DNA of 62,052 nucleotides, filler included, from Dugesia japonica (lineage: Eukaryota): assembly GCA_001938525.1 (NCBI GenBank). It is 6 parts of 6 records of this genome, joined end to end, with 100 filler letters (N's around TTAATTAATTAA, not from the genome) between each part and the next. Parts side by side here need not be neighbours in the genome. Positions count along the whole stretch, not along the records: positions 52,015 to 62,052 come from MQRL01508844.1; 5 more parts are not named here. The stretch is one strand, 5' to 3'. The translations under genes were made by a program, and so were the position numbers. This document shows positions 29,099 through 60,620 of the stretch, in pieces. Below the pieces are notes generated by a model. The model worked only from the letters and a program-made list of their open reading frames with translations. It had not been told where the DNA came from and searched no databases. Within the stretch, counting starts at the first letter, position 1; each line of letters starts with the position of its first letter.

Positions 29099-29198
29099 NN
29101 NNNNNNNNNNNNNNNNNNNNNNNNNNNNNNNNNNNNNNNNNNTTAATTAATTAANNNNNNNNNNNNNNNNNNNNNNNNNNNNNNNNNNNNNNNNNNNN
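29099..29198. other. Artificial scaffold linker
   Basis: 44 N + TTAATTAATTAA + 44 N. Confidence 0.97.
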
Positions 29199-30173
29199 AT
29201 ATTTATCAGTAAAGGAAATAAAAGATGCCAGACCAGAGGTCGATAAACTGGATGTAAAAATAGCTACATATTCCAATAATAAAATTGATTTTATCTATCA
29301 TGAAATTCTAAGACAAGTAGATAGAATATATCAAGAAAGAATGATGAAAAATTGCAAAATTAAGCGGGAGTTGTTAAGAGCAAAAATGGCAATGGTAGTC
29401 ACAAATCCGGATTTAGTAGCTCCACTTTTGTTCGAAGAAAGAGGAACATTTGGAAGAATAGTGGGAGAAACTTTAGTGAGTTTTAAATGTAAACCAGTAG
29501 CTGTTACNNNNNNNNNNNNNNNNNNNNNNNNNNNNNNNNNNNNNNNNNNNNNNNNNNNNNNNNNNNNNNNNNNNNNNNNNNNNNNNAGAATTTTAACAGA
29601 TAAACATTATCAACCAAAAGTAATTGAAAAATGTAGTAATATCCTTGATCCTATGTACAAGCTAAATTAGGAAGTATGGATAACAGTGTCAGACAGGAAG
29701 ACAGCACCAACCCCACTAATGATGGAAATGATAGAGGTCGGTAGAACAACAGAATTGGAAAGGATAGATAATATGGCATTTATACAATTAATGATATTGA
29801 GAAGGATCGGAAACATGTTTTTCCAATACAAAGAGAGAAAATAATATCAATTATGGTCGATAAAGTAGCAAGAGGAAGTAATGGAGACGACGTAAATTTT
29901 GAATCATTATTACATGCAGATCATTTTAAAAGGGCAATGCGCAATTTCGTAGATAGATTTTTGGGGGGAATGCAATGGTTTGGTAATATATTCTCATGTA
30001 TTTTGTTCGGGTGGTATGTCTTGACATTTTTAAAATTAGCAGGTCATCAAATACTTTCTCTGAGACAACTACATGCAGTTTTCGGTTACATATGGAAATT
30101 GGGAGCATGTTTCTGCCCATTTATTGCAAAACACATGATTGTGCAAAATCACAGTGAAAAAATAAAGAATTAA
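29199..30173 (+). pseudogene. Class III-type (chuvirus G / gB-like) envelope glycoprotein, C-terminal half
   Basis: NNKIDFIY...RIY....NC..KR.L....P......G......GE.L....C.PV.V...RIL......C....P.Y....W pattern followed by a TM (FGNIFSCILFGWYVLTFL). Confidence 0.75.
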
Positions 30174-30203
30174 GAAAAGCATCGAGGCGTATATACAATA
30201 AAT

Positions 30204-33200
30204 ATGGAGGATGAGCAAAAGTTAAAAAAATTAACTAATGATAAATCATCAGAGACAGAATATAAACTATTTAAACAAGAAAATATTGTATTAGAACAAA
30301 TAAAGATAGATGATTTAACACAATATAAATATCAAAAGAATTACTCAATGTCAGTCATAGATTCAGATAATAATATACACACAACCGATATTATAATAAA
30401 TGGAATTAGTATACCTTCGTTAATAGATACAGGAACAGTATACTCCATAATAAAGGAATCGTGGTTAAATAAAGCACAAAGACAAAAAATAAAAAATTAT
30501 AAACCAGAAGGTATAAAATCATTCACGGGGCATATAATAAAAACAAAAGGCATAATTGAATGTACTGTCTTAATTGAACAAGAAATTGTGACCCATCCAT
30601 TTAGAGTGATGGAAAATGGAACACAGAATTGTATTTTAGGTATGGACTTTCTGGCAAGATTAAAATGGTACGTCATTGATTTGCAAGATAGCACACTGAA
30701 AATGGTGACACCAATACCAGTGCAAGGGGAAAGTAATGTGATATGTGCAGCAGAGTTGATAACAGTAGAACGTTGTAGTGAATGTATAATGCCCATAAAT
30801 ACAGAAATACAAAATAACAAGTCATAAATTTTTTTACCAAATCAGAAATTGATAGAAAAACATAATTTATCAATACTGTCTGGATGTGTAAAGCCAAGAA
30901 AAGGAATAATACCGATGAGAATAGCGAATTACAATAATTACGATGTGACAATTCAAAAAAACACAAAGTTAGGGAAGTTATTTAAAAATGGGAAAAAATA
31001 TGAAATATATGAAATTGTAATTGAAGAACAACAGAAGAGAGTGAACTTACAAGGGCAGAGTAAAAAATCAGTAAAAGAAGAGTGTAATGAATTTCTCGAA
31101 TTTATAATGGAAAAACAAGAGAAAATGAATAAAACAAGTAATAAAGAATTAATAAAACAAAAACAAACAAAATATTATGAGAAAGCAAAAATAACAAATA
31201 AAGATCTCACAATAAATCAGCGACAACAACTACAGAAACTATTGGACAAATATGAAGATGCATTCGCTAAACATGAGTTTGATATGGGAGGAACAAACAT
31301 TATAAAACATATAATCGATACAGGTAATGCAAGACCAATAAAACAGCGACCATATGTAGCACCATATGCGTTAAGACCAGAAATCAAAAGACAAGTTGCG
31401 GAACAAAAAGCGAATGGAATCATACGAGATAGTTTCTCTCAATGGGCATCGCCAATAGTACCAGTTAAAAAGAAAGACGGAGAAATTAGAATGTGCATTG
31501 ATTATAGAAAACTTAATGAAGTCACAAAAAAAGATACACACCCCTTTCCAAAGATACACGAGCAATTCAATAAATTAATGAATGCAAAATACTTTGCAAG
31601 TTTGGATACTAACAAAGGATACAATGTAATCCCAGTACAAGAAGAAGATCGAGAGAAAACAGCATTTTGTACTGATGATGGATTATAGGAATTTGTCAGA
31701 TTACCGTTTGGGTTATGTAACGCACCAGCTACATTTCAAAGGTTAATGAACACAGTGTTAACAGGTGTCGAACATGTAGTAGTGTATATGGATGATATTC
31801 TCATAGCATCGGAAACATTTGAACAACATTTGATTAACATAGAAAATGTATTGTCAAGAATTAGAAAAGCGAATATTAAGTTAAAACCCACAAAATGGAA
31901 GTGGGCAGAGGAAAGTGTGTGACTTCACTAGTCACAAGATTTTCCAGTGCCAAAGAGTGTACAACAATTACAAGGATTTAATGGACTAGTGGGATATTAT
32001 CGTAGATTCATACAAGATTTTGCAAAGATATCAGCACCATTGGTAGAGCTAACCAAAGGCATGAAAACGAAAGGTGAAAGTAAAAGTGTAATGATTGAGG
32101 AAGAATTAGATGAAAAATCAAAGAAGCCTCAGAAAAAATGGGGCCCAAAACAACAAGAGGCTTTCGAGACATTAAAACTACGATTGCTAACATCTCCAAT
32201 ATTAAAATATCCTGATTTCACAAAACAATTCATTGTGATGACGATAGCAAGTGGGTATGCTATGGGAGCAATGCTCGGTCAAGAAGAGGAGAAAAATAAA
32301 GATTATGTAATTGCATATGCTAGCAGAATGTTGAAAGGAGCAGAGACAAGGTATTCAACAATCGAAAAAGAATGTTTAGCCATCATATTTGCGTTAAAAC
32401 AATTTAGACCGTTTATATATGGAACAGAAATAATCATCCGAACAGATCATAAACCTTTAGAGGGTCTATGAAAGAATAAAGATGCACCCAGTAGAATACT
32501 GAAGTGGGCAATGAAAATTCAAGATATGAGCATACGTATTATATATAAGCCAGGTAGAGCAAACAAAAACGCCGATGCATTATCAAGAATCCCAGAAGTG
32601 AATATAGTGGAAATGATGTCAATTGTGATGACAGGAACCAACCCAAAAACGTTCTTAGAGGAACAAAAAAAATATAAACAAATACAAGGGATTAAAAAAA
32701 TGATGCTTCAAGAAAAGAATACTAAATATAATATGTATAAGAATTTACTTATGTACAATAATTTAGGGGAAAATCTGATGGTTATACCAGACTCTCTAAA
32801 ACAATTATTATTGTTACAATATCATGATGGAGCACTCGGAGGACACCTATCTAGCAAAAAAACCACGTCAAAGTTGCTACAAAAATATTATTGGGATAAT
32901 ATTAAAGAGGATGTAAAGAAATGGTGTCAAGCATGTAGTACCTGTGCCACAAGAAAGAATACAGGAACAAAAACCAAAGTTCCTCTACAACCAATGCCAA
33001 TACCCAGTTCACCAATGGAAACATGCGCAATGGATTTTTTGTGCAAATTACCAACGACTATAAAAGGCAATAAACATATATTAGTATTTATTCACTATTT
33101 CACAAAGTGGGCAGATGCATTTCCTACAAAAGATGAAACAGCAGATACAGTAGCAAAGTTATTAGTTGAAAAAATAATATACAAATATGGAGCGCCAAGA

Positions 33201-33890
33201 AAGTTACTATCCGATAGGGGAAAGAGTTTCCTCAATGAAGTCATACAAAGAGTGACAAATATGTTTGATATTAAAAAAATAAATACGACGGCATATCACC
33301 CATAAACTGATGGGTTAGTTGAAATATTCAACAGTACACTATGTAATAGATTGGCAGTTTTCGTAAATAAACATCAAAATGATTGGGATTTGTTTATTAA
33401 GCCAACACTATTTATACATAATACAACTGAAAACGAGGCCACGGGATATTCACCATTTTATCTTATGTATCTCAGACAAAATCATATGCCAATAGATATA
33501 ACATTTNNNNNNNNNNNNNNNNNNNNNNNNNNNNNNNNNNNNNNNNNNNNNNNNNNNNNNNNNNNNNNNNNNNNNNNNNNNNNNNNNNNNNNNNNNNNNN
33601 NNNNNNNNNNNNNNNNNNNNNNNNNNNNNNNGATTATTATTAAAAGATCATAATTTTAAAGTAGGAGATAAGGTGAGGATAAAAACACCAATCACACAGA
33701 AAGGATTAACCAATAAATTAGCAAGACCTTATAAGGTCCATATGAAGTAGTAAAAACAACTCCTACAAATTTACACATAATAAAGAACAAAAGGGACGAT
33801 CCCATGATTGTGGCAGTTAACCGATGCAAAATAGCAGAAGCAGAAATTGAACCTAAAAAACAACACAAATATAACCTTCGATCAGGATCA
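30204..33890 (+). pseudogene. Gypsy pol: aspartic protease, dUTPase-fold-like spacer, RT, RNase H, integrase with GPY/F domain
   Basis: LIDTG, ILGMDFL, WASP, RMCIDYRKLN, YMDD (31785), YASR, TDHKPL, N..ADALSR, H..GH...C..C, SDRG, TTAYHP.TDGLVE, GPYEV; all ORF pieces share one frame. Confidence 0.97.
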
Positions 33891-37258: not shown

Positions 37259-37334
37259 AATATATATTATCTGTATTTAGTATTGCTATTATAGTTTTCT
37301 CTTTATACTTATTATTGACATTATATATTTTAGA

Positions 37335-38597
37335 ATAAATTGCAATTTTCAATCCCAAAAACTATTTTTATTAAACAAAGCACACATACCACTATATGAA
37401 AAACACAGAAATCTCACAAACCCTTACAACTACTGCTGGCAAGATATTGCATTAATTACCTTGTTCACCGAAGAAAATCCCGTATGTCCCCTATGTTATG
37501 ATCAACCTGTGGTACCCCGAATAGCACCTTGTGGACACTTCTTTTGCTTCGCTTGCATAAACCAGTATTTTCATGTTACCAACTCTGATAACGTACCTTG
37601 TCCTTCTTGTAGGACACAGAAAATATATGACACTAAACTCAAACGCGCCAGTTTTTGTTACATTAATAAGCCTCGTGTCGAACAGTTTATTTCATTTACT
37701 CTCCTGATTAAAATGCCTGATAATAATAGCACACGCTTTGCTCATCTTACTCCTGTAATTCAGCAGATAGATGTCCCTAGTTGTTGCAACCCCATTAGCA
37801 AGTTCCAAGAAATCTGCATCCAATCCGATTCTTTATCAATAAAACAGATTAACAATGATATTAGAACAATTAGTTATGGCCAGTTAGCTGCAGCGCAAAA
37901 AAAGAAATTGATAAAAATACTTAAAACAGAAAGAACACATTTCACATTTAATATTAAAATTCTTGATAAGTTGGAACACGAAAAGTCGTTTACGGATAGA
38001 ACCCGGAATACAGACAAGTTTAATCTTCTCGTCCATCACCCTACATTATCGAACGTAAGATTATTTTATCAAACAGCTATCTATTCACGAACTTTTCTCA
38101 ATAGTGTGCAGACGAAACGACTTTTGAAAAATCAATCGGAAGATATTCCTTTTCGCATGGGTGGTTTCATCACGGTCATAGAAGTAGCTATTGATCACCA
38201 TTTAGATATAGATAAAATATATCATTTCCTGCCTAATCAAACGAAAATAAGACTCGTGACGATCCGAATGGACACTTCCTCCACATCAAGACATTTTGGT
38301 CCTTTGAGTTATCTATACATTCATGCTAATATAACAAGGCTAGCTATGAAGAGGCGTAATAAAGAATTGCAAGACATCGCAAACGAGAGTAAAGCTAGGA
38401 AGGGTCGACCAGCCCGGATACTCACCCATCGTGCCAATACAAACAAAATAGATATTTTTTCTAGAAGTCCTTCTGTTTCCCCATCCTTCATAAATCTAGA
38501 AGATAATTTCCCAGCGTGTATTTTTAATGAACCTTGTTCCGATAACACCATTTCATCATTCCAAGATATTGCCTGTCCTTATTTCGCGTTTACCTAA
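37335..38597 (+). CDS. RNF10/Mag2-like C3HC4 RING E3 ligase
   Basis: NCNF...P....W.DI......CPLC...P..PRIAPCGH.FCFACI.QY......CP.C; the frame is open back to a TTTTAG acceptor at 37333. Confidence 0.75.
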   Translation: MNCNFQSQKLFLLNKAHIPLYEKHRNLTNPYNYCWQDIALITLFTEENPVCPLCYDQPVVPRIAPCGHFFCFACINQYFHVTNSDNVPCPSCRTQKIYDTKLKRASFCYINKPRVEQFISFTLLIKMPDNNSTRFAHLTPVIQQIDVPSCCNPISKFQEICIQSDSLSIKQINNDIRTISYGQLAAAQKKKLIKILKTERTHFTFNIKILDKLEHEKSFTDRTRNTDKFNLLVHHPTLSNVRLFYQTAIYSRTFLNSVQTKRLLKNQSEDIPFRMGGFITVIEVAIDHHLDIDKIYHFLPNQTKIRLVTIRMDTSSTSRHFGPLSYLYIHANITRLAMKRRNKELQDIANESKARKGRPARILTHRANTNKIDIFSRSPSVSPSFINLEDNFPACIFNEPCSDNTISSFQDIACPYFAFT

Positions 38598-52014: not shown

Positions 52015-52754
52015 TTTCAACAAATCAAAATCATTCATGATGAAATGGATCATCTCAGTAGATACATCCGTGCGCACAAAACCACCTCCCCCCGCTGGAA
52101 AAGTGCTATGATTTTTTGGTTTGATTTTTTGTATAATTTGTTGGTTTAAAATTTTTGAATATTGATTGGTCAAAAAGTTGTATTGAAAATATTTTCTTTT
52201 TGGAAATTTTATTTGTCGAAATTTTGGTCAGAAAAGTGGAATTTTGAATTTTTGGTTTTTAATTTTTTTTCAGTCAATTTTTATTGTATAGTTTCAAATT
52301 TAGTATCGCCAGTTAAGACATACGATTGTTCCATAATATATATCTATAAAATTGAATTTTGAAATTTTTGCATCCATGTGGCGAATTTTTCAAATTTTAT
52401 CAAGCAAATTGAATAAATCTGAAGTAATGTTATTCACATATCCTTGAAAATACAAATTTCTAAGCCCTAGTTTCACTAGTTTTCCTACCACGAACACATT
52501 TGCACATAAAGGGTCATATTTTACAAGTATTAGAGTAGGAAATAACTCTGGTTCGAACCAACAGTTGACTATTCTTGCTAATTTATACAAATTTATTAAA
52601 ACTCCCATATTTACGACAATTGTTAGTAACTGTAATTGTAAATTTTTTATAAAATAGGGGTTCACATTATGCGGTTCTAATGGTTTCTTACATCCCATTA
52701 TTCTTGATTTTATTGACCTAGAGTAAATAATTGAATATTTATCCCTTTTGACTT

Positions 52755-52945
52755 TGTTAGGTAAATCTTCAATTGTTAATTCATTTTGCAAATCAGAATT
52801 CATATTGTTAGACATTTTTTATTTTACTACTACAAACTATATTTCATAAGATAAATAATTATGAAATACAAGTATTTAAATATTAATATTTAGATGTCTC
52901 AATTCCTAATGGGTGAGATTATTAATTAATAATTATTTTCTCATA
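52755..52945 (-). repeat. 3' LTR
   Basis: Near-identical to 56024-56214; preceded by AAAAAAGGGGA on the minus strand. Confidence 0.93.
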
Positions 52946-52995
52946 TCCCCTTTTTTAAGAAACTTCCTAAGTTTTTCCCCATTTCTTTCTAAACG

Positions 52996-54820
52996 CTAGC
53001 CATTGTCTCCTTGTATTGCACACCACCTTTCGTGAATTTTTTCAATTATTCGATAAGGTCCTTCAAATCTGCCTTGACTTTTATTTCTTGTTTCTACATT
53101 GATGAGTACAAAATTGCCCACTTTAAATTCTCTTTTAGTAATCACGTCTGAAATGGTTTTTTTAGTTTTATCTGACACGTCTGACTTGTATAAGTTTATT
53201 TGGTAATTTTCCTTCTAAAAAACGAAGTAAATCTTCTTCCGTACAAGTAATGTTTGAAATGCAGACAGAAATAATAAACAGCCAATAAATCCTTTCGTGT
53301 AATGTAGTATCCTTTTTCATGACTCGTTATTGAGTGTGATCCATAGGCAACAAATCTTTCTCTTCCTTCTTTATCTCTCTGTGACAATACTGCTCAATTG
53401 TATCGAAACTTGCATCTGTATCTAATATAAATTCTTTGTTTATGTCCGGACAACACAATATTGGTACAGTCCTTAGAGTTGTTTTCAGTCCATTCTAATT
53501 TCTTGTTGCTTGGTCCGCTACACAATTGCTCTAATATCTTTAACTTTCTTGCGTAGTTTTCTATAACCTTATTGTAATAATTACAAATTCCCAAGAAACC
53601 TCGTAACTTCTTCACACAGTTAGATTTGCCAAATGTTCTTATTGCTTCTATTTCATACACCATCCTGGTAATTATGTGTCCAAGAAACTTGATTTCGTTT
53701 TGAAGAAACTCACACTTCTCTGGATTTAATCTTAGACCAGCCTACATTATTTCCATCAATACTTTAACAATGACTTCATAGTGTTGATCTTTATTGTTCG
53801 TAAATATCAGAATGTCATCAAGATAAACTATGGCTCCACTGATTCCGCCAACCACTTTTGTCATCATCTCCTGAAATGTCCCTGGTGCCGCTGCGATGCT
53901 AAATGGTATTCTATTAAAACAATATTGTCCGTATTTCGTTGAAAACGCTGTTTTTTCTTGAGATTCTTCTTTGAGGTATACCTGATAGTATGTATTTCTT
54001 AAATCTATTGAACTGAAATATTTGGAGACATCTTACTTTTGCAGCATTTCATCGACATTAGGCATCGGAAAGGCTTGTCCTTTTGTTACTGCATTCAACT
54101 GTCTGAAATCCAAACATATTCTTATGTCCTTCTTTTTTTCCAAACACAGATCAATGGAATATTCCATGGATAGTTGCATTTTCGGATAATATTATTCTCA
54201 AAAAGGTTTTGGATAGCTTTTTCAATTTTAGATTCTAAGTTCATTGATTGTCTGTACGGTTTTACATTGATTGGTTCAACACTTGTGATTATTTTGTGTC
54301 TTTTCACATTTGTACGTTTTACATCCAATTTAACTGCTATAGAAACATATTTTTTACTTTCAATTATTTTCAATAACTGTTGGTCCTCTGTAATCTACAA
54401 ACTATTTAAACCTCTTGTCAATCGCTCTCCATTTTTAATTTTTCTTCCGAATTTCGCTTCAATATTACAAATTTTCGACTTTTTCATCCGTTTTGCTATC
54501 GATCTTTCGTATAAGCTGATATCTAAAAATCTTCTGCATATCTATTCCTCCTATCTGATCTGGTGTCACTCTTTTAGGAACTAAAAAAGTAATCTCTTAG
54601 CAGGCTTCATCAATTATCACTCCAGTTCTAACTTTCCCAACAATTTCAAGTGTTCTAATGTTTCCACAACGCAATCTTTCATGACTCATTTCTAAATTTA
54701 CTTCTCGTAATTTAATAAAACAAATCAAACTCATCACGTTAATTTGAGCCCCTGTAGCTAATAGACATTCGACTTTATCTCCTTGAATTGAGACTGTAAC
54801 ACTAGGTTTGCCTTGCAATT
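52996..54820 (-). pseudogene. Gypsy pol remnant
   Basis: CLLATGAQ (catalytic D lost), PWN.P...V.K, CLDFRQLN, KTAFST, YLDD, LRGFLG..NYY, HF.HYLYG, FEGPY. Confidence 0.9.
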
Positions 54821-55179
54821 TATGGTACGAAATATTTATTTTCTTTTTTGCTTCAACTGTTTCAATCCATTCAACTTTTCTACCATCTGTAAAATTTCAC
54901 CTCTTTAAGAAACTGTATGCTTTTTCTGTAACTTTTCCTATATCATCCCACTTTTCGACCCCTTAAGGATATTTACTCACTTCATTTAACAATGGATGGC
55001 TCCAACCAACTCCTCTACTGGTGGAGTCTGCCTTTTGGGTACTGCCTTTTGGAATCACTTTCATATACTTTCTCATATTCATCGTCTGTACTGACATCTT
55101 CATCTTTAATCGCATGTATTCGGTTATATCGGTTTCTTGATCTTTCTGCATTCATAAATTTATCATTGGTTCTTTTCCT

Positions 55180-56084
55180 TTTAAAATTTGTGTAGCACTA
55201 TTCTGCTCTATTTCCACTATTACAACATCGTTTACACCTCACGTCTTGACATAACCGTCTTATTTGGGCAACGTTTCCACTACCAAAACATTTTGTTGGT
55301 TTTTTATTTTGACAATCTCGACTTATATGTCCTGTTTTATGACAACTCCAGCACTCTACCACTTTTTTTTCGGACAACTTGCTTTAGTATGACCGATCTT
55401 ATGATATGACCAACATTCGATATTTTGTTTTTCCTTTCTTTGCTCCACATGTCTATTCAGTGTACGATTTACAGGTTTCTGATAATTTCGGTTTGTAACT
55501 CTCGCGTAACTTCTAACTTCATCAACTCGATCTCTGTTTTTCTCTACTCGATCTACTAACGTCATTGTTTCTTCAATTTCTTCTATATNNNNNNNNNNNN
55601 NNNNNNNNNNNNNNNNNNNNNNNNNNNNNNNNNNNNNNTTATCTGAACAATATACTAGCATCTTTGTAACCATTTTTTCTTCAGTAAAATCTTTATTTGT
55701 AAATAATCTTTCCACTAAATATTTTACATTTCTAAAATGAAATTAAATCTTTTCATTTCCACGCCTGTAGTTAACCAAATTTTGAAAATCTTTCTCTTTC
55801 TCAAATGCCATACGCAAACGAGCCTGAAAATCTTCAACTTTTTTCAACTTCATTGCATATTCTTCCAACAAATCGTCATCTAGCAAACAAGAGACTAATC
55901 TCTCCTATTTCATGTTTCATCTGAAATATGTTTTTAACTTCAAAATACAATTCACACCTTTTGATAAATTTCTAAATATCATCTCCTCTGCAGTAATAGA
56001 ATCGGTATTTACCGCTCCCACAATGTTAGGTAAATCTTCAATTGTTAATTCATTTTGCAAATCAGAATTCATATTGTTGGAAAT
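55180..56084 (-). pseudogene. Gypsy gag with multiple CCHC knuckles, frame starting inside the 5' LTR
   Basis: ECW..HK.GH....C, ECW.CHK.GH....C and C..CG...H....C knuckles. Confidence 0.8.
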
Positions 56085-56214
56085 TTTTTATTTTAATACT
56101 ACAAACTATATTTCATAAGATAAATAATTATGAAATACAAGTATTTAAATATTAATATTTAGATTTGTCAATTCCTAATGGGTGAGATTATTAATTAATA
56201 ATTATTTCCTCAAA
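56024..56214 (-). repeat. 5' LTR
   Basis: Near-identical to 52755-52945; followed on + by TSD GACTT. Confidence 0.93.
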
Positions 56215-56413
56215 GACTTTAACTTGGCATGGTTTGCCTATAGGAAAGCTCATTTTCTTTGTTACTTTTTACGACACTTCACCTCTGTAATTGATATTGG
56301 TAATCATATTAATTGAAATTATGAGGAGCATTGGGGTTTTGATAGAGTTAATTTAATTGATTCGTTAAAACAAATATAAACAATGTAATAAATTATGAAT
56401 AAATTAAAACAAG

Positions 56414-57031
56414 ATGGAGAAATTAAGAAATGATGCAGTCTATCACATTGTTGGACCCAGTGGTAGTGGTAAAATTTTGTTTATATGTCAATTATTGAAA
56501 TCAAAGTTATTCAAGTCAAAATTTTAAAACATATACTGACATAGGGGTGCAGATGAGGAACATGGACTGACTAGAATTTTGTAATATTAAAATGAAAATT
56601 TTAAATGGTTTTGATTCTAATTGGAGCAAAAGATTAAGACCAGTTGATGTTATTGTTATTGATGATCTGTATCAGGAGGCAAATAAAGAAAAGGATTTCA
56701 ATAATTTATTCACAAAAATATCGAGACATTGTAATGTGACTGTTATATTTATTACTCAAAATCTATTTCATCAAGGAGGTAGTCATAGAACCCGAAATTT
56801 AAACGTACATAATTTGGTTCTATTCAAAAATCTTAGAGTTAAAACTGTTGTTGATTTTCTAGCAAGATAAGCATATCCAAATAACAGAAAATTGTTTATT
56901 GAATCATTTCAAGATGCACAAAAAAACCACATGGATTTCTTGACTTTACACAACAATGTCCAGATGATTATAGAGTGAGAACAGATTTATTCAACCTTAA
57001 TGGTATCGCAGTATATATACAAAACAGGTAA
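56414..57031 (+). pseudogene. Polinton packaging ATPase
   Basis: IVGPSGSGK, VIVIDDL, FTK.SRH.NVTVIFITQNLF, RT..LN....VLFKN.R. Confidence 0.92.
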
Positions 57032-57302
57032 CCTTTCATAATATAACAAAATGACAAAATTATAGAAATGTGTAGTTGATCAAGTAACTGATGGTCTTAT
57101 TAAACATTGAAAAACATCTGTTGAGAAGAAAAAGTAAAAAAAAGAAACATCACATAAATAAGAAGCAAACAAGAAAAAAAAGGAAACAAATGATTATGTT
57201 TAAAAAACCTGCAAAATGGAATGGAAAGAAGCTGAAAATGATGATTAGAAAATAGATTTATTATAAACAAAGTTATAGTATGTATTAGTTTAATAAATAA
57301 AG

Positions 57303-57625
57303 ATGAAATTGCAAGTAATCATACTGTTTTTTACAGCTTTAATTAAATCATCAAAACATTTAAGAATGAAAATTTTGCAATCATTCCCACGATATGTTAT
57401 AGATGATTTACTTGAAATTATTATAAATATTGTTCATTGCAATGTAGATTTGAGTGCAGCCAAAAAGAAGACATTGAGAAAACATATAATTGCTTTATTA
57501 ACGCTTGTAAACACAGAAAATAGAAAATCAATGAGACACGTAATGAACAATGAAGGTGGTGGCTTTATAGCAACATGCTACCCATTGCAATGGCTGCATT
57601 AGGGTTAACTCATTTCAAATAAACA
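57303..57625 (+). pseudogene. Polinton core/PW-like protein with a GG|F cleavage site
   Basis: L.EII.NI..C.V.L...K..L.KH...L; GGGFIA followed by a frameshifted hydrophobic tail. Confidence 0.7.
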
Positions 57626-57769
57626 ATGGTTGACTTTATAACAGTAATATTAATAATTAGCTCAAATGAACAATGAGTGGATTGCAATAATTACCTAACG
57701 TTGACTTAAACTTTGCATCTGATTGTTTTGGTGGAGCAAATAATGAAGATAATATGAATGGATCCAAAA

Positions 57770-58075
57770 AACCCAACAGGTTTTTGAGGCGTAAAAAATT
57801 GATGAAAGCAGCTCAAAACACGCAAAGAAAGACAAAAAAGTGGTTATCTGTACAAGGTTGAAAGGATTTCCAACAAGAGCATATAAAGCATATGGTATTC
57901 ATGATTAATTGTAAAATGTATCTAATGGGAATGATTATTCAAAGACTAATAAATTTTAAAAGTATATTTCTGTTATTTATCGTTGTATTCAATAGATTTG
58001 CAAGAGCTGTTCTATTTTAATCCAAGAAAACTAAAGAATAAACAATACTTTGTAAAATGATATTAATACGAAAAC
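57770..58075 (+). pseudogene. Highly decayed Polinton integrase remnant
   Basis: FPTR.Y...GI.D, then V...RFA.AV...SK. Confidence 0.5.
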
Positions 58076-58137
58076 TGATTTTAGTATTAACAACACAAAT
58101 AGACAAACAAGACGCAAATTATAATTAAATCTAATAA

Positions 58138-59229
58138 TTTCTATACACTTTTACCTAGTAATAGTAGTCCACTAGTTCGTCCAAATTATATTGCTAGTAA
58201 TTACATTGTTGAGCTTCAAAATCCAATTTATATGGGTGGTAGATAGGAAGTTGTCATGATGGATTTTACCTTTGTATATTCAGTCATGCCGATTTATAGT
58301 CAATCTAAGTTTGAATATGAATTACTTAAAGTAATTGAAAAGGAACTAATAATTGATGTTAACAATAAAGAAACAAAAGTTCTTTTAACTGTTAATTCTC
58401 AAGAAAATTATAAAAATAGCAAGAAAATAGTTATGCGATTATCAAAAGAAAACGTGTTATTATTCATTACTAGTGATATTACATTTTACAGTTTATTCTT
58501 TAATAGTCGGAAAACTTTAAAGAGATTTTCACATTTTAGCGGTGATATTGAAAGTATGGATATTAAATTAACTTTTGATACTACTAAGAATTTTGGAGAT
58601 AAAACATTTGCTCTTGGCTTTTGCAACTTTAAAAACGATGAGTACTTTCAAAATATTAGAAATAAATATTATTATTATCCGATTGTAACTAAACATTCTT
58701 TTCAATTTAAATCTGAATTTTATATAAAGGATTTAAATCAAATAAATGAATATTGTAAAAAACACCTTTCACAGTTATTTAACACGTTTAAATTAAATAA
58801 AGATGAACTATTTGAATTTATATTGGCAAACAGAACTAAAGTGATAAATTTGATAAAATCTTAACAAAATTATTAGGACTAATAGAAGCGCAATATACTC
58901 GATTACAAATTAATGATAAAAAACTACTATATAAAAGTAATAAGAAACCTAAAATATTAAAGTGTTATAATGAAATGTTCATCTATTGTAGTATTGTTGA
59001 ACCTGTAATTGTTGGTGATGTTAATGTTCCTTTATTGAAAGCAGTATGGATAAAAGAACATGAAAATGATGAAGTAGTTCAAATAATTGTTGATCATCAA
59101 ATGCATTTATCTATTTTTCATCATTTATAAACAATATAAAAATCAATATACGCCATAATAGTGGAAAACTAGTCAATTTTGCTGAAGATTCAAAAACCCA
59201 TTTAACTTTACATTTTAGAAAAATTAATA
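58138..59229 (+). pseudogene. Polinton minor capsid (penton/PZ)
   Basis: FY..LPSNSS...P......Y.V.L.NPI...G.(W)EV; MFIYC.IVEP..VGD...PLL; LTLHFR. Confidence 0.88.
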
Positions 59230-59620
59230 ATGAATCCTGATATTATATCCTTTTATAGTACTAATTAAGCAGGTGGAGAATTACCTTATTTTTTGGGAAA
59301 ACAGTATTGATCCGGTTGGTTACGAACAATAAGGAGATTTATTTTGCTTATCTTAGATGTATCGGTTCTTTTGGTATGAAAACAGCTCAAGATGTACTAG
59401 CTAATAACGGAACAATACTACCCACACTGAAATCATTCTTCATTACCCAGCAAAGTTACCAGTGTGATTCCAAAAGTAGCAGGTATATTACCGCAAAGTA
59501 TAACTAATAAAATACCATCTGAAATAACTAATATGCTATCAAATCAAGTCCAAACACCACAAAATATTAAAAAACGTAAGAAATCTCATGCATCACGTAT
59601 AAACCAACGAACGAGAGGAT
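59230..59620 (+). pseudogene. Polinton core (PX-like) protein
   Basis: Y...(Q)AGG.LPYF.G.QY(G)SGW.R...R. Confidence 0.65.
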
Positions 59621-59789: not shown

Positions 59790-60620
59790 ACAATAGTACC
59801 ATGCATTTACGTTGTTACTATGCAAATTGTATCATCATTAACATGGTTACTATGCAAATAATACACTCAAAACCATAAATTACAAGGTTGCTATGAAAAT
59901 ATTACAAGGTAACTATGCAAAAATAAATACACTCATAAAACGTATATTACACGGTTGCTTATATTAATGAATGCAATAATGAATGCAATTTAATAATGAA
60001 TGCAATAAGGTTGCAATATGAATGCAAGACAGTAACAGATGCCTAGGAATTTTAATAAATGCAACTTAGATGCAACTCATATGTAACTTACATAAAAGGA
60101 AAATAACATGTTCTGGAATTTTAGATGCATTTTTAGAGATTTTTTAAATTGGCCACCAAAAAGAAATTTTTAAAACTCGACAATTTTTAAAAAATATGCA
60201 ATAGGTTACAGCTCAGATGCAACTCAAATTCAACACACATACATTAAAAATCACGTGCCAGGGAATTTTTTTTATAATAAATGTAATAAGTATGCAATAC
60301 ATATGCCACAAGAATGCAACATATATTCACTGAAATCACATGCCTAGGAATTTTAACTATACCATACCATGCAAAATATCAAGACTGTCCCATTTAAAGC
60401 AAAAATATGTTTTAAAAAATCAATAATGCCTCAATATCTTACAAAATTATCAAGACTGTCCAATCTGTTACAAAAATCTCAAGACTGACCCATACCATGC
60501 ATAAATATCAAGACTGCCCATATTATGCAATAATATCAAAACATTAAGACTGTCCGATATCTTACAAAATATCAAGACTGCCCGATATTTTGTTATAATA
60601 TCTTGCAAAATATCAAGAAA
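59790..60620. repeat. Degenerate short-repeat arrays (GGTTRCTATGCAAA, AATGCAA, AAAATATCAAGACTGYCC)
   Basis: About seven AAGACTG-centred copies in 60373-60618 with irregular spacing. Confidence 0.7.

What the first reader, a model, noticed from the sequence alone, without database searches (positions are those of the whole stretch)
52057..57031. Polinton carrying its own TBP-like gene
Removing the gypsy insertion (TSD GACTT) restores an intronless ~150-codon two-repeat TBP-fold gene with one internal stop (FEPELFP, VF..GK....G). It lies about 330 bp inside an AGTAG terminus and is divergently paired with the packaging ATPase about 105 bp away. Established: TBP homologs are common in large nucleocytoviruses and are not part of the standard Polinton core set. 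The first repeat is strongly diverged, so it may redirect host Pol II to viral promoters or act as a dominant negative.
Basis: partly seen in the sequence, partly recalled or inferred. Interest (0 to 1): 0.72.

Follow-up and report, generated by a model that had tools for sequence, protein, structure and literature searches.

The report
Polinton mini-TBP with matching promoter box
A decayed virus-like Polinton element here carries a broken copy of a slimmed-down TATA-binding-protein gene that its relatives keep intact, and most of their packaging, integrase and putative capsid genes sit behind a non-standard TATA box (YATAAACR), so the protein likely switches on the element's late genes using the host's polymerase.

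Summary
Confirmed. A minus-strand TBP-fold gene (56307-56215 and 52752-52390), split by a gypsy element, lies head-to-head with a Polinton ATPase. This copy is a pseudogene. Intact ~150-aa relatives form a large family under purifying selection, fold as TBP (pLDDT 97.6; Z 13.7 to human TBP), and lie beside Polinton core genes in 36 of 44 contigs of 2.5 kb or more.

The first repeat is not decayed. It is shortened and carries near-invariant substitutions on the DNA-binding face, while the acidic TFIIB stirrup is kept. An off-consensus TATA box, YATAAACR, precedes 87 of 104 packaging, integrase and putative virion genes and 0 of 64 TBP-like genes; the window copy has it before three genes. Another Polinton carries a distant TBP plus TFIIB and a different box (TATTTAA).

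Best reading (0.62, inferred): a one-protein early-to-late switch, working like herpesvirus ORF24/TATT. Dominant-negative is unlikely. Binding and expression are untested, and the TBP-less controls are few and incomplete. In ten paper searches I found only a figure-legend label 'TBP'. This scan found the same system before on other DNA.

The parts
52057..52110 (+). Candidate Polinton left end (AGTAG followed by a GC-rich C-run); unproven
   Evidence: Sequence; similar AGTAG/C-run at 12679; no partner inverted repeat found; low contig cover
52390..52752 (-). TBP-like gene, C-terminal piece (matches residues 31-150 of intact relatives)
   Evidence: Pfam PF00352 E 1.6e-5; tblastn 72.5% to P0001
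52750..52754 (+). GACTT, left copy of the target-site duplication
52755..52943 (-). Gypsy-type LTR (3' LTR of a minus-strand element; polypurine tract adjacent)
   Evidence: tract read from the sequence
52944..56023 (-). Decayed gag-pol interior (RT, RNase H; many stops; integrase region not detected; assembly gap near 55590)
   Evidence: Pfam RVT_1 E 1.3e-28, RT_RNaseH E 1.2e-13 with stops read as X
56024..56212 (-). Gypsy-type LTR (5' LTR)
   Evidence: 6 differences in 189 bases from the other LTR
56215..56219 (+). GACTT, right copy of the duplication, 2 nt outside the LTR
56215..56307 (-). TBP-like gene, N-terminal piece (31 codons, one in-frame stop at codon 13)
   Evidence: tblastn 87% to P0001 residues 1-31
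56375..56382 (+). YATAAACR box (TATAAACA), 39 nt before the ATPase ATG; no same-strand gene upstream
56414..57031 (+). A32-type packaging ATPase, broken by stops and frameshifts
   Evidence: tblastn E 3e-64 to ATPases of the related loci, which hit Pfam Pox_A32
57262..57269 (+). YATAAACR box, 41 nt before the pX-like ATG
57303..57623 (+). Small pX-like core-protein gene
   Evidence: tblastn E 3e-23; one family member has a weak Adeno_PX hit, E 0.005
57766..58125 (+). Integrase remnant (most of the gene missing)
   Evidence: single tblastn hit, E 8e-6
58109..59234 (+). Putative minor capsid gene, broken (label from position and recall; no Pfam hit)
   Evidence: tblastn E 2e-12 and 6e-21
59126..59133 (+). 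YATAAACR box about 104 nt before the PM-like ATG (98-107 nt in 5 of 6 relatives)
59230..59435 (+). PM / pVII-like gene, broken (label recalled)
   Evidence: tblastn E 3e-17
59598..59605 (+). TATAAACC near-box where relatives have the box before the major capsid gene; no capsid gene was found after it here

Best explanation
The window holds a dead copy of a Polinton-encoded, shortened TATA-binding protein, whose intact relatives likely act as a one-protein late-gene switch: likely made early from an ordinary promoter, they would bind the element's own YATAAACR box and would recruit host TFIIB and RNA polymerase II to the packaging, integrase and putative virion genes. Shown: the fold, the Polinton linkage, purifying selection, the conserved altered DNA face, the kept acidic stirrup, and the distribution of the box. 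Inferred: DNA binding, that the box is a promoter, TFIIB recruitment, and early/late timing. Structural rationale (orientation recalled, not computed): the N-terminal repeat of TBP contacts the 3' half of the TATA box, which is where this box breaks the TATAWAWR consensus (C at position 7) and where the protein is remodelled. The shortened convex side of repeat 1 would also weaken control by host TBP partners (recalled roles).
For: Fold: AF2 model of intact relative P0001 with a 126-row alignment, pLDDT 97.6; top Foldseek hits all TBP; Z 13.7, rmsd 2.5 A, 148 of 150 residues aligned to human TBP, best non-TBP Z 7.1. Family: 123 clusters at E<=1e-10. Linkage: a core Polinton gene in 46 of 80 loci, 36 of 44 at >=2.5 kb (Pfam names). 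Selection: dN/dS under 0.25 in 35 of 41 computable pairs. Residues in 126 rows: three of four intercalating Phe kept (F41 116/117, F101 123/124, F117 119/121); the first-stirrup Phe absent; positions matching yeast V122, T124, N159, V161, L205 hold R 117/118, M 126/126, S/T 126/126, T/S 124/126, N 121/122; stirrup E97 110/124, E99 122/124. These yeast positions are listed as TBP DNA contacts in PMC12529657 Table 1, where KSHV ORF24 also has polar residues at V122, T124, V161, L205. Box: ATAAAC in 149 of 285 upstream regions against 26.5 in shuffles; YATAAACR before 87 of 104 genes of eight late-type classes, 0 of 64 TBP-like genes, 0 of 104 on the antisense strand, 9 of 696 in-ORF tiles; in 40 of 45 loci. 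It lies in two reading frames and in spacers. It follows the next gene, not the previous one: 57 of 69 gene ends when a late-type gene follows, 3 of 22 when TBP follows. L081, found through its ATPase, has both the gene and the box (3 of 4). No family gene and no box: 0 of 10 genes of the other Polinton group in this window, 0 of 11 in L082-L084, 0 of 7 in G004:C86, which has a distant TBP plus TFIIB and TATTTAA before 4 of 7.
Against: No binding, transcript-start or timing data. The related loci share ancestry, so the counts and the Fisher p (7e-31) are not independent events. All 80 loci were fetched through the TBP gene. The TBP-less controls are a handful of partial or decayed elements; L082-L084 carry their own odd box (TATAAGA/TATAAAGA, 3 of 11) although no TBP passed the cut-off in their assemblies, so an odd box may not need an element-encoded TBP, or the gene lies off-contig. 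Host TBP can bind a C(-25) TATA variant (PDB 1QN3 title; Hoogsteen pairs, PMC4402545). The box was present at 3 of 4 convergent gene ends and 8 of 23 ends followed by other genes. Only 38 of 87 boxes lie 30-45 nt before the called ATG. Canonical TATAWAWR occurs before only 24 of 64 TBP-like genes and also before 20 of 104 late-type genes. Major and minor capsid labels have no Pfam or PDB support.
Confidence: 0.62

Rival explanations
1. The box is a real promoter but is read by host TBP or another host factor, as a weak TATA variant; the element's TBP is an accessory booster of all element genes, not a late-specific switch.
For: Host TBP binds a C(-25) variant in crystals. L082-L084 have a recurring odd box with no TBP detected. 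The box resembles a forkhead site (recalled).
Against: The box is missing before all 64 TBP-like genes and 7 of 8 genes of cluster C13, which has canonical TATA in 6 of 8. The family's DNA face is invariantly altered. A second TBP lineage goes with a second box.
Confidence: 0.2
2. The motif is a variant polyadenylation or termination signal of the preceding gene, not a promoter, and the TBP-like protein has an unrelated role.
For: TATAAA and CATAAA resemble poly(A) signals (recalled). In tandem arrays one gene's end is the next gene's start. The box was present at 3 of 4 convergent ends.
Against: Only 3 of 22 late-type gene ends have it when TBP follows. It precedes late-type genes whatever lies upstream (32/37, 61/75, 19/25). 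It lies inside upstream ORFs up to about 70-100 nt before their stops. The window ATPase has it with no same-strand gene upstream.
Confidence: 0.06
3. The protein is a dominant-negative decoy that sequesters host TFIIB or blocks host promoters (host shut-off or counter-defence).
For: The TFIIB stirrup is kept while one intercalating Phe and parts of helices H1 and H2 of repeat 1 are lost.
Against: A decoy would not need near-invariant new residues across the DNA-binding face. The element depends on host Pol II: no RNA polymerase gene was seen among the clustered ORFs of the 80 loci. It does not explain the box.
Confidence: 0.07
4. The element is transcribed in the factory of a helper giant virus; the box is the helper's late promoter and the TBP-like protein adapts the helper's polymerase, as in a virophage-like life cycle.
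For: Virophages share promoter elements with giant viruses (abstract of PMC11464507). TBP-like proteins are common in giant viruses.
Against: The canonical TATA boxes before some TBP-like and C13 genes, and the eukaryote-type YEPELFP stirrup, point to nuclear Pol II. Viral structural matches share only about 10-20% identity. No helper is known.
Confidence: 0.05

Closest known systems
Cellular TBP (eukaryotic and archaeal; Pfam PF00352)
   Same: Two-repeat saddle fold over 148 of 150 residues; three intercalating Phe, the Pro after the third Phe, and the acidic second stirrup kept.
   Different: About 20% identity; about 150 aa against about 180; helices H1 and H2 of repeat 1 shortened; first-stirrup Phe absent; polar or altered residues at the V71, V122, T124, N159, V161, L205 positions; intronless; sits apart from cellular TBPs in the tree (94/95).
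Beta/gamma-herpesvirus TBP mimics (KSHV ORF24, EBV BcRF1, HCMV UL87) with TATTWAA late promoters
   Same: A viral TBP fold with a more polar DNA face, paired with a variant TATA box before late genes, in a virus with no RNA polymerase of its own (PMC12529657, passages and section 15).
   Different: ORF24 is 752 aa, binds Pol II directly, works in a six-protein complex, keeps four Phe and lacks the acidic TFIIB residues. This family is a bare 150-aa domain that keeps them. The box is YATAAACR, not TATTWAA. Function is untested here.
TBP-like proteins of nucleocytoviruses and mirusviruses (e.g. ASFV B263R homologs)
   Same: Virus-encoded TBP fold; structural matches up to TM 0.80.
   Different: About 10-20% identity; most such viruses encode their own RNA polymerase and TFIIB (recalled). 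No TFIIB-like gene was found in the 80 loci.
Polintons / Mavericks / adintoviruses (Starrett et al. 2021, PMC8502044)
   Same: pPolB, rve-chromo integrase, A32 ATPase, C5 protease, PLA2-type and pX-like genes around the homologs. The Fig. [quoted passage not shown]
   Different: The passages read give no analysis, distribution or promoter. I could not see the figure, so I cannot tell whether its gene belongs to this family.
Animal TRF2 / TBPL1
   Same: A TBP paralog type that has lost intercalating Phe and uses non-TATA promoters (recalled).
   Different: TRF2 lacks three of the four Phe (recalled); this family lacks one. It was not included in my tree.

Membership tests
TBP superfamily | Pfam PF00352 above the curated cut-off | tested here: met
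   Window piece 25.1 bits against 22.9; four relatives 52.9-63.7 bits
TBP superfamily | Two-repeat saddle fold | tested here: met
   Model of relative P0001, pLDDT 97.6; Z 13.7 over 148 residues
Canonical eukaryotic TBP | Four intercalating phenylalanines | tested here: not met
   Three kept; no Phe at the first-stirrup position in either register, against 110 of 120 eukaryotic TBPs with it
Canonical eukaryotic TBP | Paired Asn and hydrophobic DNA face (N69, V71, V122, T124, N159, V161, L205) | tested here: not met
   N69 kept (96/103); the others replaced
Canonical eukaryotic TBP | Acidic second stirrup for TFIIB | tested here: met
   E97 110/124, E99 122/124; numbering anchored to yeast 183-219. 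Sequence only.
Canonical eukaryotic TBP | Binds TATA DNA and TFIIB | not testable with these tools
   No DNA-binding assay; no host TFIIB sequence was on hand
Herpesvirus vTBP (ORF24 / UL87) | Large multidomain protein with Pol II-binding N-terminal domain and C-terminal DNA-binding extension | tested here: not met
   Most family members are 140-200 aa, TBP fold only
Herpesvirus vTBP (works like) | Variant TATA box restricted to late-type genes | tested here: met
   87 of 104 against 0 of 64; 'late' is inferred from gene type
Herpesvirus vTBP (works like) | Protein required for transcription from that box | not testable with these tools
   Needs a reporter or binding assay
Polinton/Maverick (window element) | Packaging ATPase and integrase | tested here: met
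   ATPase E 3e-64; integrase remnant E 8e-6
Polinton/Maverick (window element) | pPolB, major capsid and protease in the same copy | tested here: not met
   No hit between 52,000 and 62,052. The copy is truncated; relatives with the same gene order (L007, L014) carry them.
Polinton/Maverick (window element) | Terminal inverted repeats and 6-bp target-site duplication | tested here: inconclusive
   One AGTAG end, no partner found
Polinton/Maverick (relatives) | Double jelly-roll major capsid protein | tested here: inconclusive
   A conserved 403-427-aa ORF in the expected place, with no Pfam or PDB sequence hit; not folded

The most novel reading that the evidence does not exclude
Animal Polintons run a private transcription code. 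A 150-residue TBP with a re-tooled DNA face reads an element-specific TATA variant and alone turns on the virion and integration programme through host TFIIB and Pol II. Different Polinton lineages pair different TBPs (one with its own TFIIB) with different boxes (YATAAACR, TATTTAA, perhaps TATAAGA). This would be the smallest viral late-transcription system known and a natural altered-specificity TBP-promoter pair.
Probability: 0.5. Interest if true: 0.85.

Novelty: new variant of a known kind. Interest (0 to 1): 0.7.

Why it matters
How Polintons time their genes, and whether they run a viral early/late programme, was not addressed in any paper my searches returned. A conserved element-encoded TBP with a matching promoter box makes this testable with one small protein and an 8-bp site. 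It would support a regulated virion phase for these elements, show convergence with herpesvirus late transcription, and give a natural example of TBP specificity change, and possibly an orthogonal promoter system. It also explains a class of small intronless 'TBP' annotations in metagenomes. The window copy itself is a fossil.

Tried and rejected
No whole genome is held for this window, so genome-wide linkage in the host could not be tested. Contigs of four DNA runs cover the TBP-like and ATPase stretches in many variants, but none of the joints shown bridges the insertion, and 1903 joints were not shown; summed depth is not copy number. Expression was not tested: no RNA holder was listed and no RNA reads were laid. 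IMG/VR held no relative of the TBP family, the putative capsid, the ATPase or the TFIIB-like protein, nor did the phage collection for the capsid. A first fold from a 4-row alignment failed (pLDDT 30). The complex-prediction tool and the protein atlas were not available. The tree cannot name a donor: grouping the family with eukaryotic TBP is not rejected (p-AU 0.11), the bootstrap had not settled, and TRF2 and named giant-virus TBPs were not included. My guess that cluster C13 is a single-stranded-DNA-binding protein found no support. The supplement of PMC8502044 (cut at 4 million characters; slides unreadable) gave no hit for TBP or family motifs; unseen parts and Fig. 5 may bear on novelty. 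Patikoglou 1999 was not held. Rejected: host TBP paralog or retrocopy (intronless, Polinton context, separate in the tree); chance match (E-values, 123 clusters); dominant negative (see rivals).
Full report
OBSERVATION. A minus-strand gene lies in two pieces, 56307-56215 and 52752-52390, on either side of an LTR element. The LTRs (52755-52943, 56024-56212) differ at 6 of 189 bases and enclose decayed RT and RNase H sequence. GACTT flanks both sides; the right copy is 2 nt outside the LTR (chance about 0.004). The C-terminal piece passes the Pfam TBP cut-off (E 1.6e-5). The pieces match residues 1-31 and 31-150 of an intact 150-aa database protein, P0001, at 87% and 72.5%. The N-terminal piece has a stop at codon 13, and the copy departs from the family at several near-invariant positions, so it is a pseudogene. 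The ATPase ATG is 106 bp from the TBP ATG, and AGTAG (52057) is 333 bp from the stop. AGTAG as a terminus is unproven: no partner repeat was found, and contig cover of that bin is several hundred-fold below the next bin.

THE ELEMENT. To the right lie ATPase, a pX-like gene, an integrase remnant, a putative minor capsid gene and a PM-like gene, all on +. No pPolB, major capsid or protease hit follows before the window ends. L007, L014 and L050 have the same order. So this is a truncated Polinton copy. Contigs of four DNA runs from three studies show many variants of both the TBP-like and ATPase stretches, which fits a repeated family; that depth is not a copy number, and the runs were chosen with this stretch.

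THE FAMILY. The window piece found 3 relatives among 4 candidates (61-73%). A profile search gave 537 clusters at E<=0.001 and 123 at E<=1e-10; the best 150 were listed, and a few of them are ordinary or other TBPs. I aligned 126 rows (A2): the four seed-side proteins' three intact members and 123 listed hits, leaving out short fragments and the ordinary TBPs. A second search gave 285 hits among 2646 candidates; none of the 120 listed came from NCBI, and the only names were automatic 'TBP' labels. With A2, P0001 folds at pLDDT 97.6. Foldseek's top PDB hits are all TBP, and VIA-align gives Z 13.7, rmsd 2.5 A over 148 residues, against 7.1 for the best non-TBP. In a 72-row tree, 55 family rows fall on one side of a branch (94/95), with a short-form subclade (98/98) that holds P0001-P0003. 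The donor is unresolved (p-AU 0.11). Among 44 pairs at 70-97% identity, 3 were saturated; dN/dS was under 0.25 in 35 of the other 41, 0.29-0.48 in five and 1.0 in one.

LINKAGE. A metagenome scan gave 148 relatives, of which the best 80 were kept. Neighbours hit Pfam Pox_A32, rve plus chromo, DNA_pol_B_2, Peptidase_C5 and the PLA2-like domain. At least one core gene occurs in 46 of 80 loci: 4 of 17 under 1.5 kb, 6 of 19 at 1.5-2.5 kb, 22 of 28 at 2.5-5 kb and 14 of 16 above 5 kb. By 70%-identity clusters with a contig of 2.5 kb or more, it is 25 of 30. One of the 46 rests only on the recalled minor-capsid label. The capsid and PM labels come from size, position and recall; they had no Pfam or PDB hit.

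PROTEIN SURFACE. C-terminal numbering is anchored to yeast TBP. The N-terminal mapping uses an alignment to a plant TBP core and recalled yeast numbers. The DNA-contact list is Table 1 of PMC12529657. Kept: N69 (96/103), F116 (116/117), F190 (123/124), P191 (103/124), F207 (119/121) and the stirrup glutamates at 186 and 188 (110/124, 122/124). The paper names E184 and E188 as critical for TFIIB; E186 is my recall. Changed, and fixed in the family: F99 absent, V71 mostly N (75/103), V122 R (117/118), T124 M (126/126), N159 S/T (126/126), V161 T/S (124/126), L205 N (121/122). Canonical patterns at these sites occur in 95-120 of 120 eukaryotic TBPs. The helices of repeat 1 are shortened, strongly so in the window's subtype. 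The first repeat is therefore remodelled and conserved, not decaying, which argues against a decoy.

THE BOX. An unbiased k-mer count on 285 de-duplicated 150-nt upstream regions put ATAAAC first (149 against 26.5 in shuffles). YATAAACR precedes ATPase 23/25, pX-like 16/18, integrase 12/16, putative minor capsid 9/13, PLA2 9/12, putative major capsid 9/10, PM 6/6 and protease 3/4; it was on the antisense strand in none of these 104, and in 9 of 696 in-ORF tiles. It precedes 0 of 64 TBP-like genes, 24 of which have a canonical TATAWAWR, mostly 31-47 nt before the ATG; 20 of the 104 late-type genes also have a canonical box. Thirty-eight of 87 boxes lie 30-45 nt before the called ATG. The window copy has TATAAACA 39 and 41 nt before the ATPase and pX-like ATGs and about 104 nt before PM, AATAAACA at two further places, and none before the TBP gene. 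Poly(A) test: the box is at 57 of 69 late-type gene ends when a late-type gene follows, 3 of 22 when TBP follows, 8 of 23 when another gene follows, 3 of 4 at convergent ends and 1 of 8 with nothing seen. C at position 7 breaks the TATAWAWR consensus (PMC1935006, passages). Host TBP can accommodate a C(-25) variant through Hoogsteen pairing (PDB 1QN3 title; PMC4402545 passages); that C(-25) is position 7, and that repeat 1 contacts the 3' half of the box, are recalled.

CONTROLS. A scan by ATPase returned five contigs from bacterial MAG records, presumably eukaryotic carry-over. L081 has a family TBP (E 8e-48) and the box before 3 of 4 genes. L082-L084 have neither (0 of 11), with TATAAGA/TATAAAGA before 3 of 11 and no TBP above cut-off in their two assemblies. 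They are partial (3.8-11.8 kb), and a scan note (e1-8577431, unchecked) ties a TAAGA box to another TBP, so this is not a clean negative. The other Polinton group in this window (1-19,900) has no family hit and 0 of 10 boxes. The 22.9-kb contig G004:C86 is a Polinton with a distant TBP (Pfam E 1.9e-11; 21% to the family; no acidic stirrup) followed directly by a TFIIB-like gene (Pfam E 4e-6; human TFIIB E 5.6e-4). Its late-type genes have YATAAACR in 0 of 7 and TATTTAA in 4 of 7 (0 of 1500 shuffles; motif picked after looking; one contig). No TFIIB-like gene was found in the 80 loci or the window.

MECHANISM. Most likely (0.62): the TBP-like gene is transcribed early by host machinery; its product binds YATAAACR through the altered face, recruits host TFIIB through the kept stirrup, and nucleates Pol II initiation at packaging, integrase and virion genes. 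Fold, linkage, selection, residue pattern and box distribution are shown. Binding, promoter function, TFIIB recruitment and timing are inferred. Rivals: host-read weak TATA with an accessory TBP (0.2), decoy (0.07), poly(A) signal (0.06), helper giant virus (0.05).

PRIOR KNOWLEDGE. It works like the beta/gamma-herpesvirus system (ORF24 and TATTWAA; PMC12529657, passages and section 15 read), but is not a member of that family. It is a TBP-superfamily member that fails the canonical eukaryotic TBP criteria. Ten full-text searches were run: Polinton with TATA-binding protein, TBP, TATA or TFIIB; adintovirus with TATA (40); Maverick with TBP (49); promoter and late-gene terms; and two on TBP itself. 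[quoted passage not shown] (PMC8502044, passages and section 3.4; bioRxiv 697771, passages; figure not seen). PMC12220804 and bioRxiv 2022.05.25.493380 (passages) had nothing on this. Other listed papers were seen as listings only, and most subscription papers are not searched. After my own motif analysis I found that this scan had reported the mini-TBP with TATAAAC box, and the TBP-TFIIB pair, on other DNA. Those are unchecked AI notes and not independent support.

VERDICT. A real Polinton-borne TBP family with a matching candidate late promoter; the window copy is a fossil. New variant of a known kind; interest 0.70.

Noticed in passing
L087:803-2070 (G004:C86, about 11,770-13,040, minus strand): A 22.9-kb Polinton contig carries a distant TBP directly followed by a TFIIB-like gene with a zinc ribbon; its ATPase, pX-like, PM and putative capsid genes are preceded by TATTTAA, like the herpesvirus TATTWAA late box.
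   Followed up: partly
L082-L084: Related Polinton fragments in MAG records use TATAAGAC/TATAAAGA before several genes, with no TBP detected in their assemblies.
   Followed up: partly
window 1-19,930: Two partly inverted, decayed copies of a different Polinton group (PLA2-integrase, A32 ATPase, protease, pPolB; inverted arms 1821-2203 and 18356-18738, 73%), with no TBP-family hit and no YATAAACR box; AGTAG plus C-run at 12679.
   Followed up: partly
window 29,155-33,650: A second LTR-type element whose pol region is preceded by a Monjiviricetes-type fusion glycoprotein gene (Pfam PF24664, E 2e-14): an env-bearing retroelement or a captured viral glycoprotein.
   Followed up: no
window 37,281-38,597: A 438-codon open frame with an N-terminal RING finger, possibly TRIM-like.
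   Followed up: no
window 56,213-56,214: Two extra bases lie between the right LTR and the target-site duplication, as if one end had been joined unprocessed.
   Followed up: no
L011, L028, L001, L053, L046 (clusters C13, C3, C16, C19): Small conserved ORFs, some with acidic tails, often flank the TBP-like gene; C13 has a canonical TATA in 6 of 8 cases. I guessed single-stranded-DNA-binding proteins, but Pfam and PDB sequence searches gave nothing.
   Followed up: partly
L007:9591-10052 and 23 other loci (cluster C1): A ~155-aa ORF with an N-terminal IDFE/IDYQ motif, possibly a DEDD-type nuclease (recalled), is the commonest neighbour, sometimes duplicated, and has the YATAAACR box in 17 of 23 cases.
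   Followed up: no
window 59,792-60,602: Degenerate 22-65-nt tandem repeats (AAGACTGNCC core) where the Polinton homology ends.
   Followed up: no
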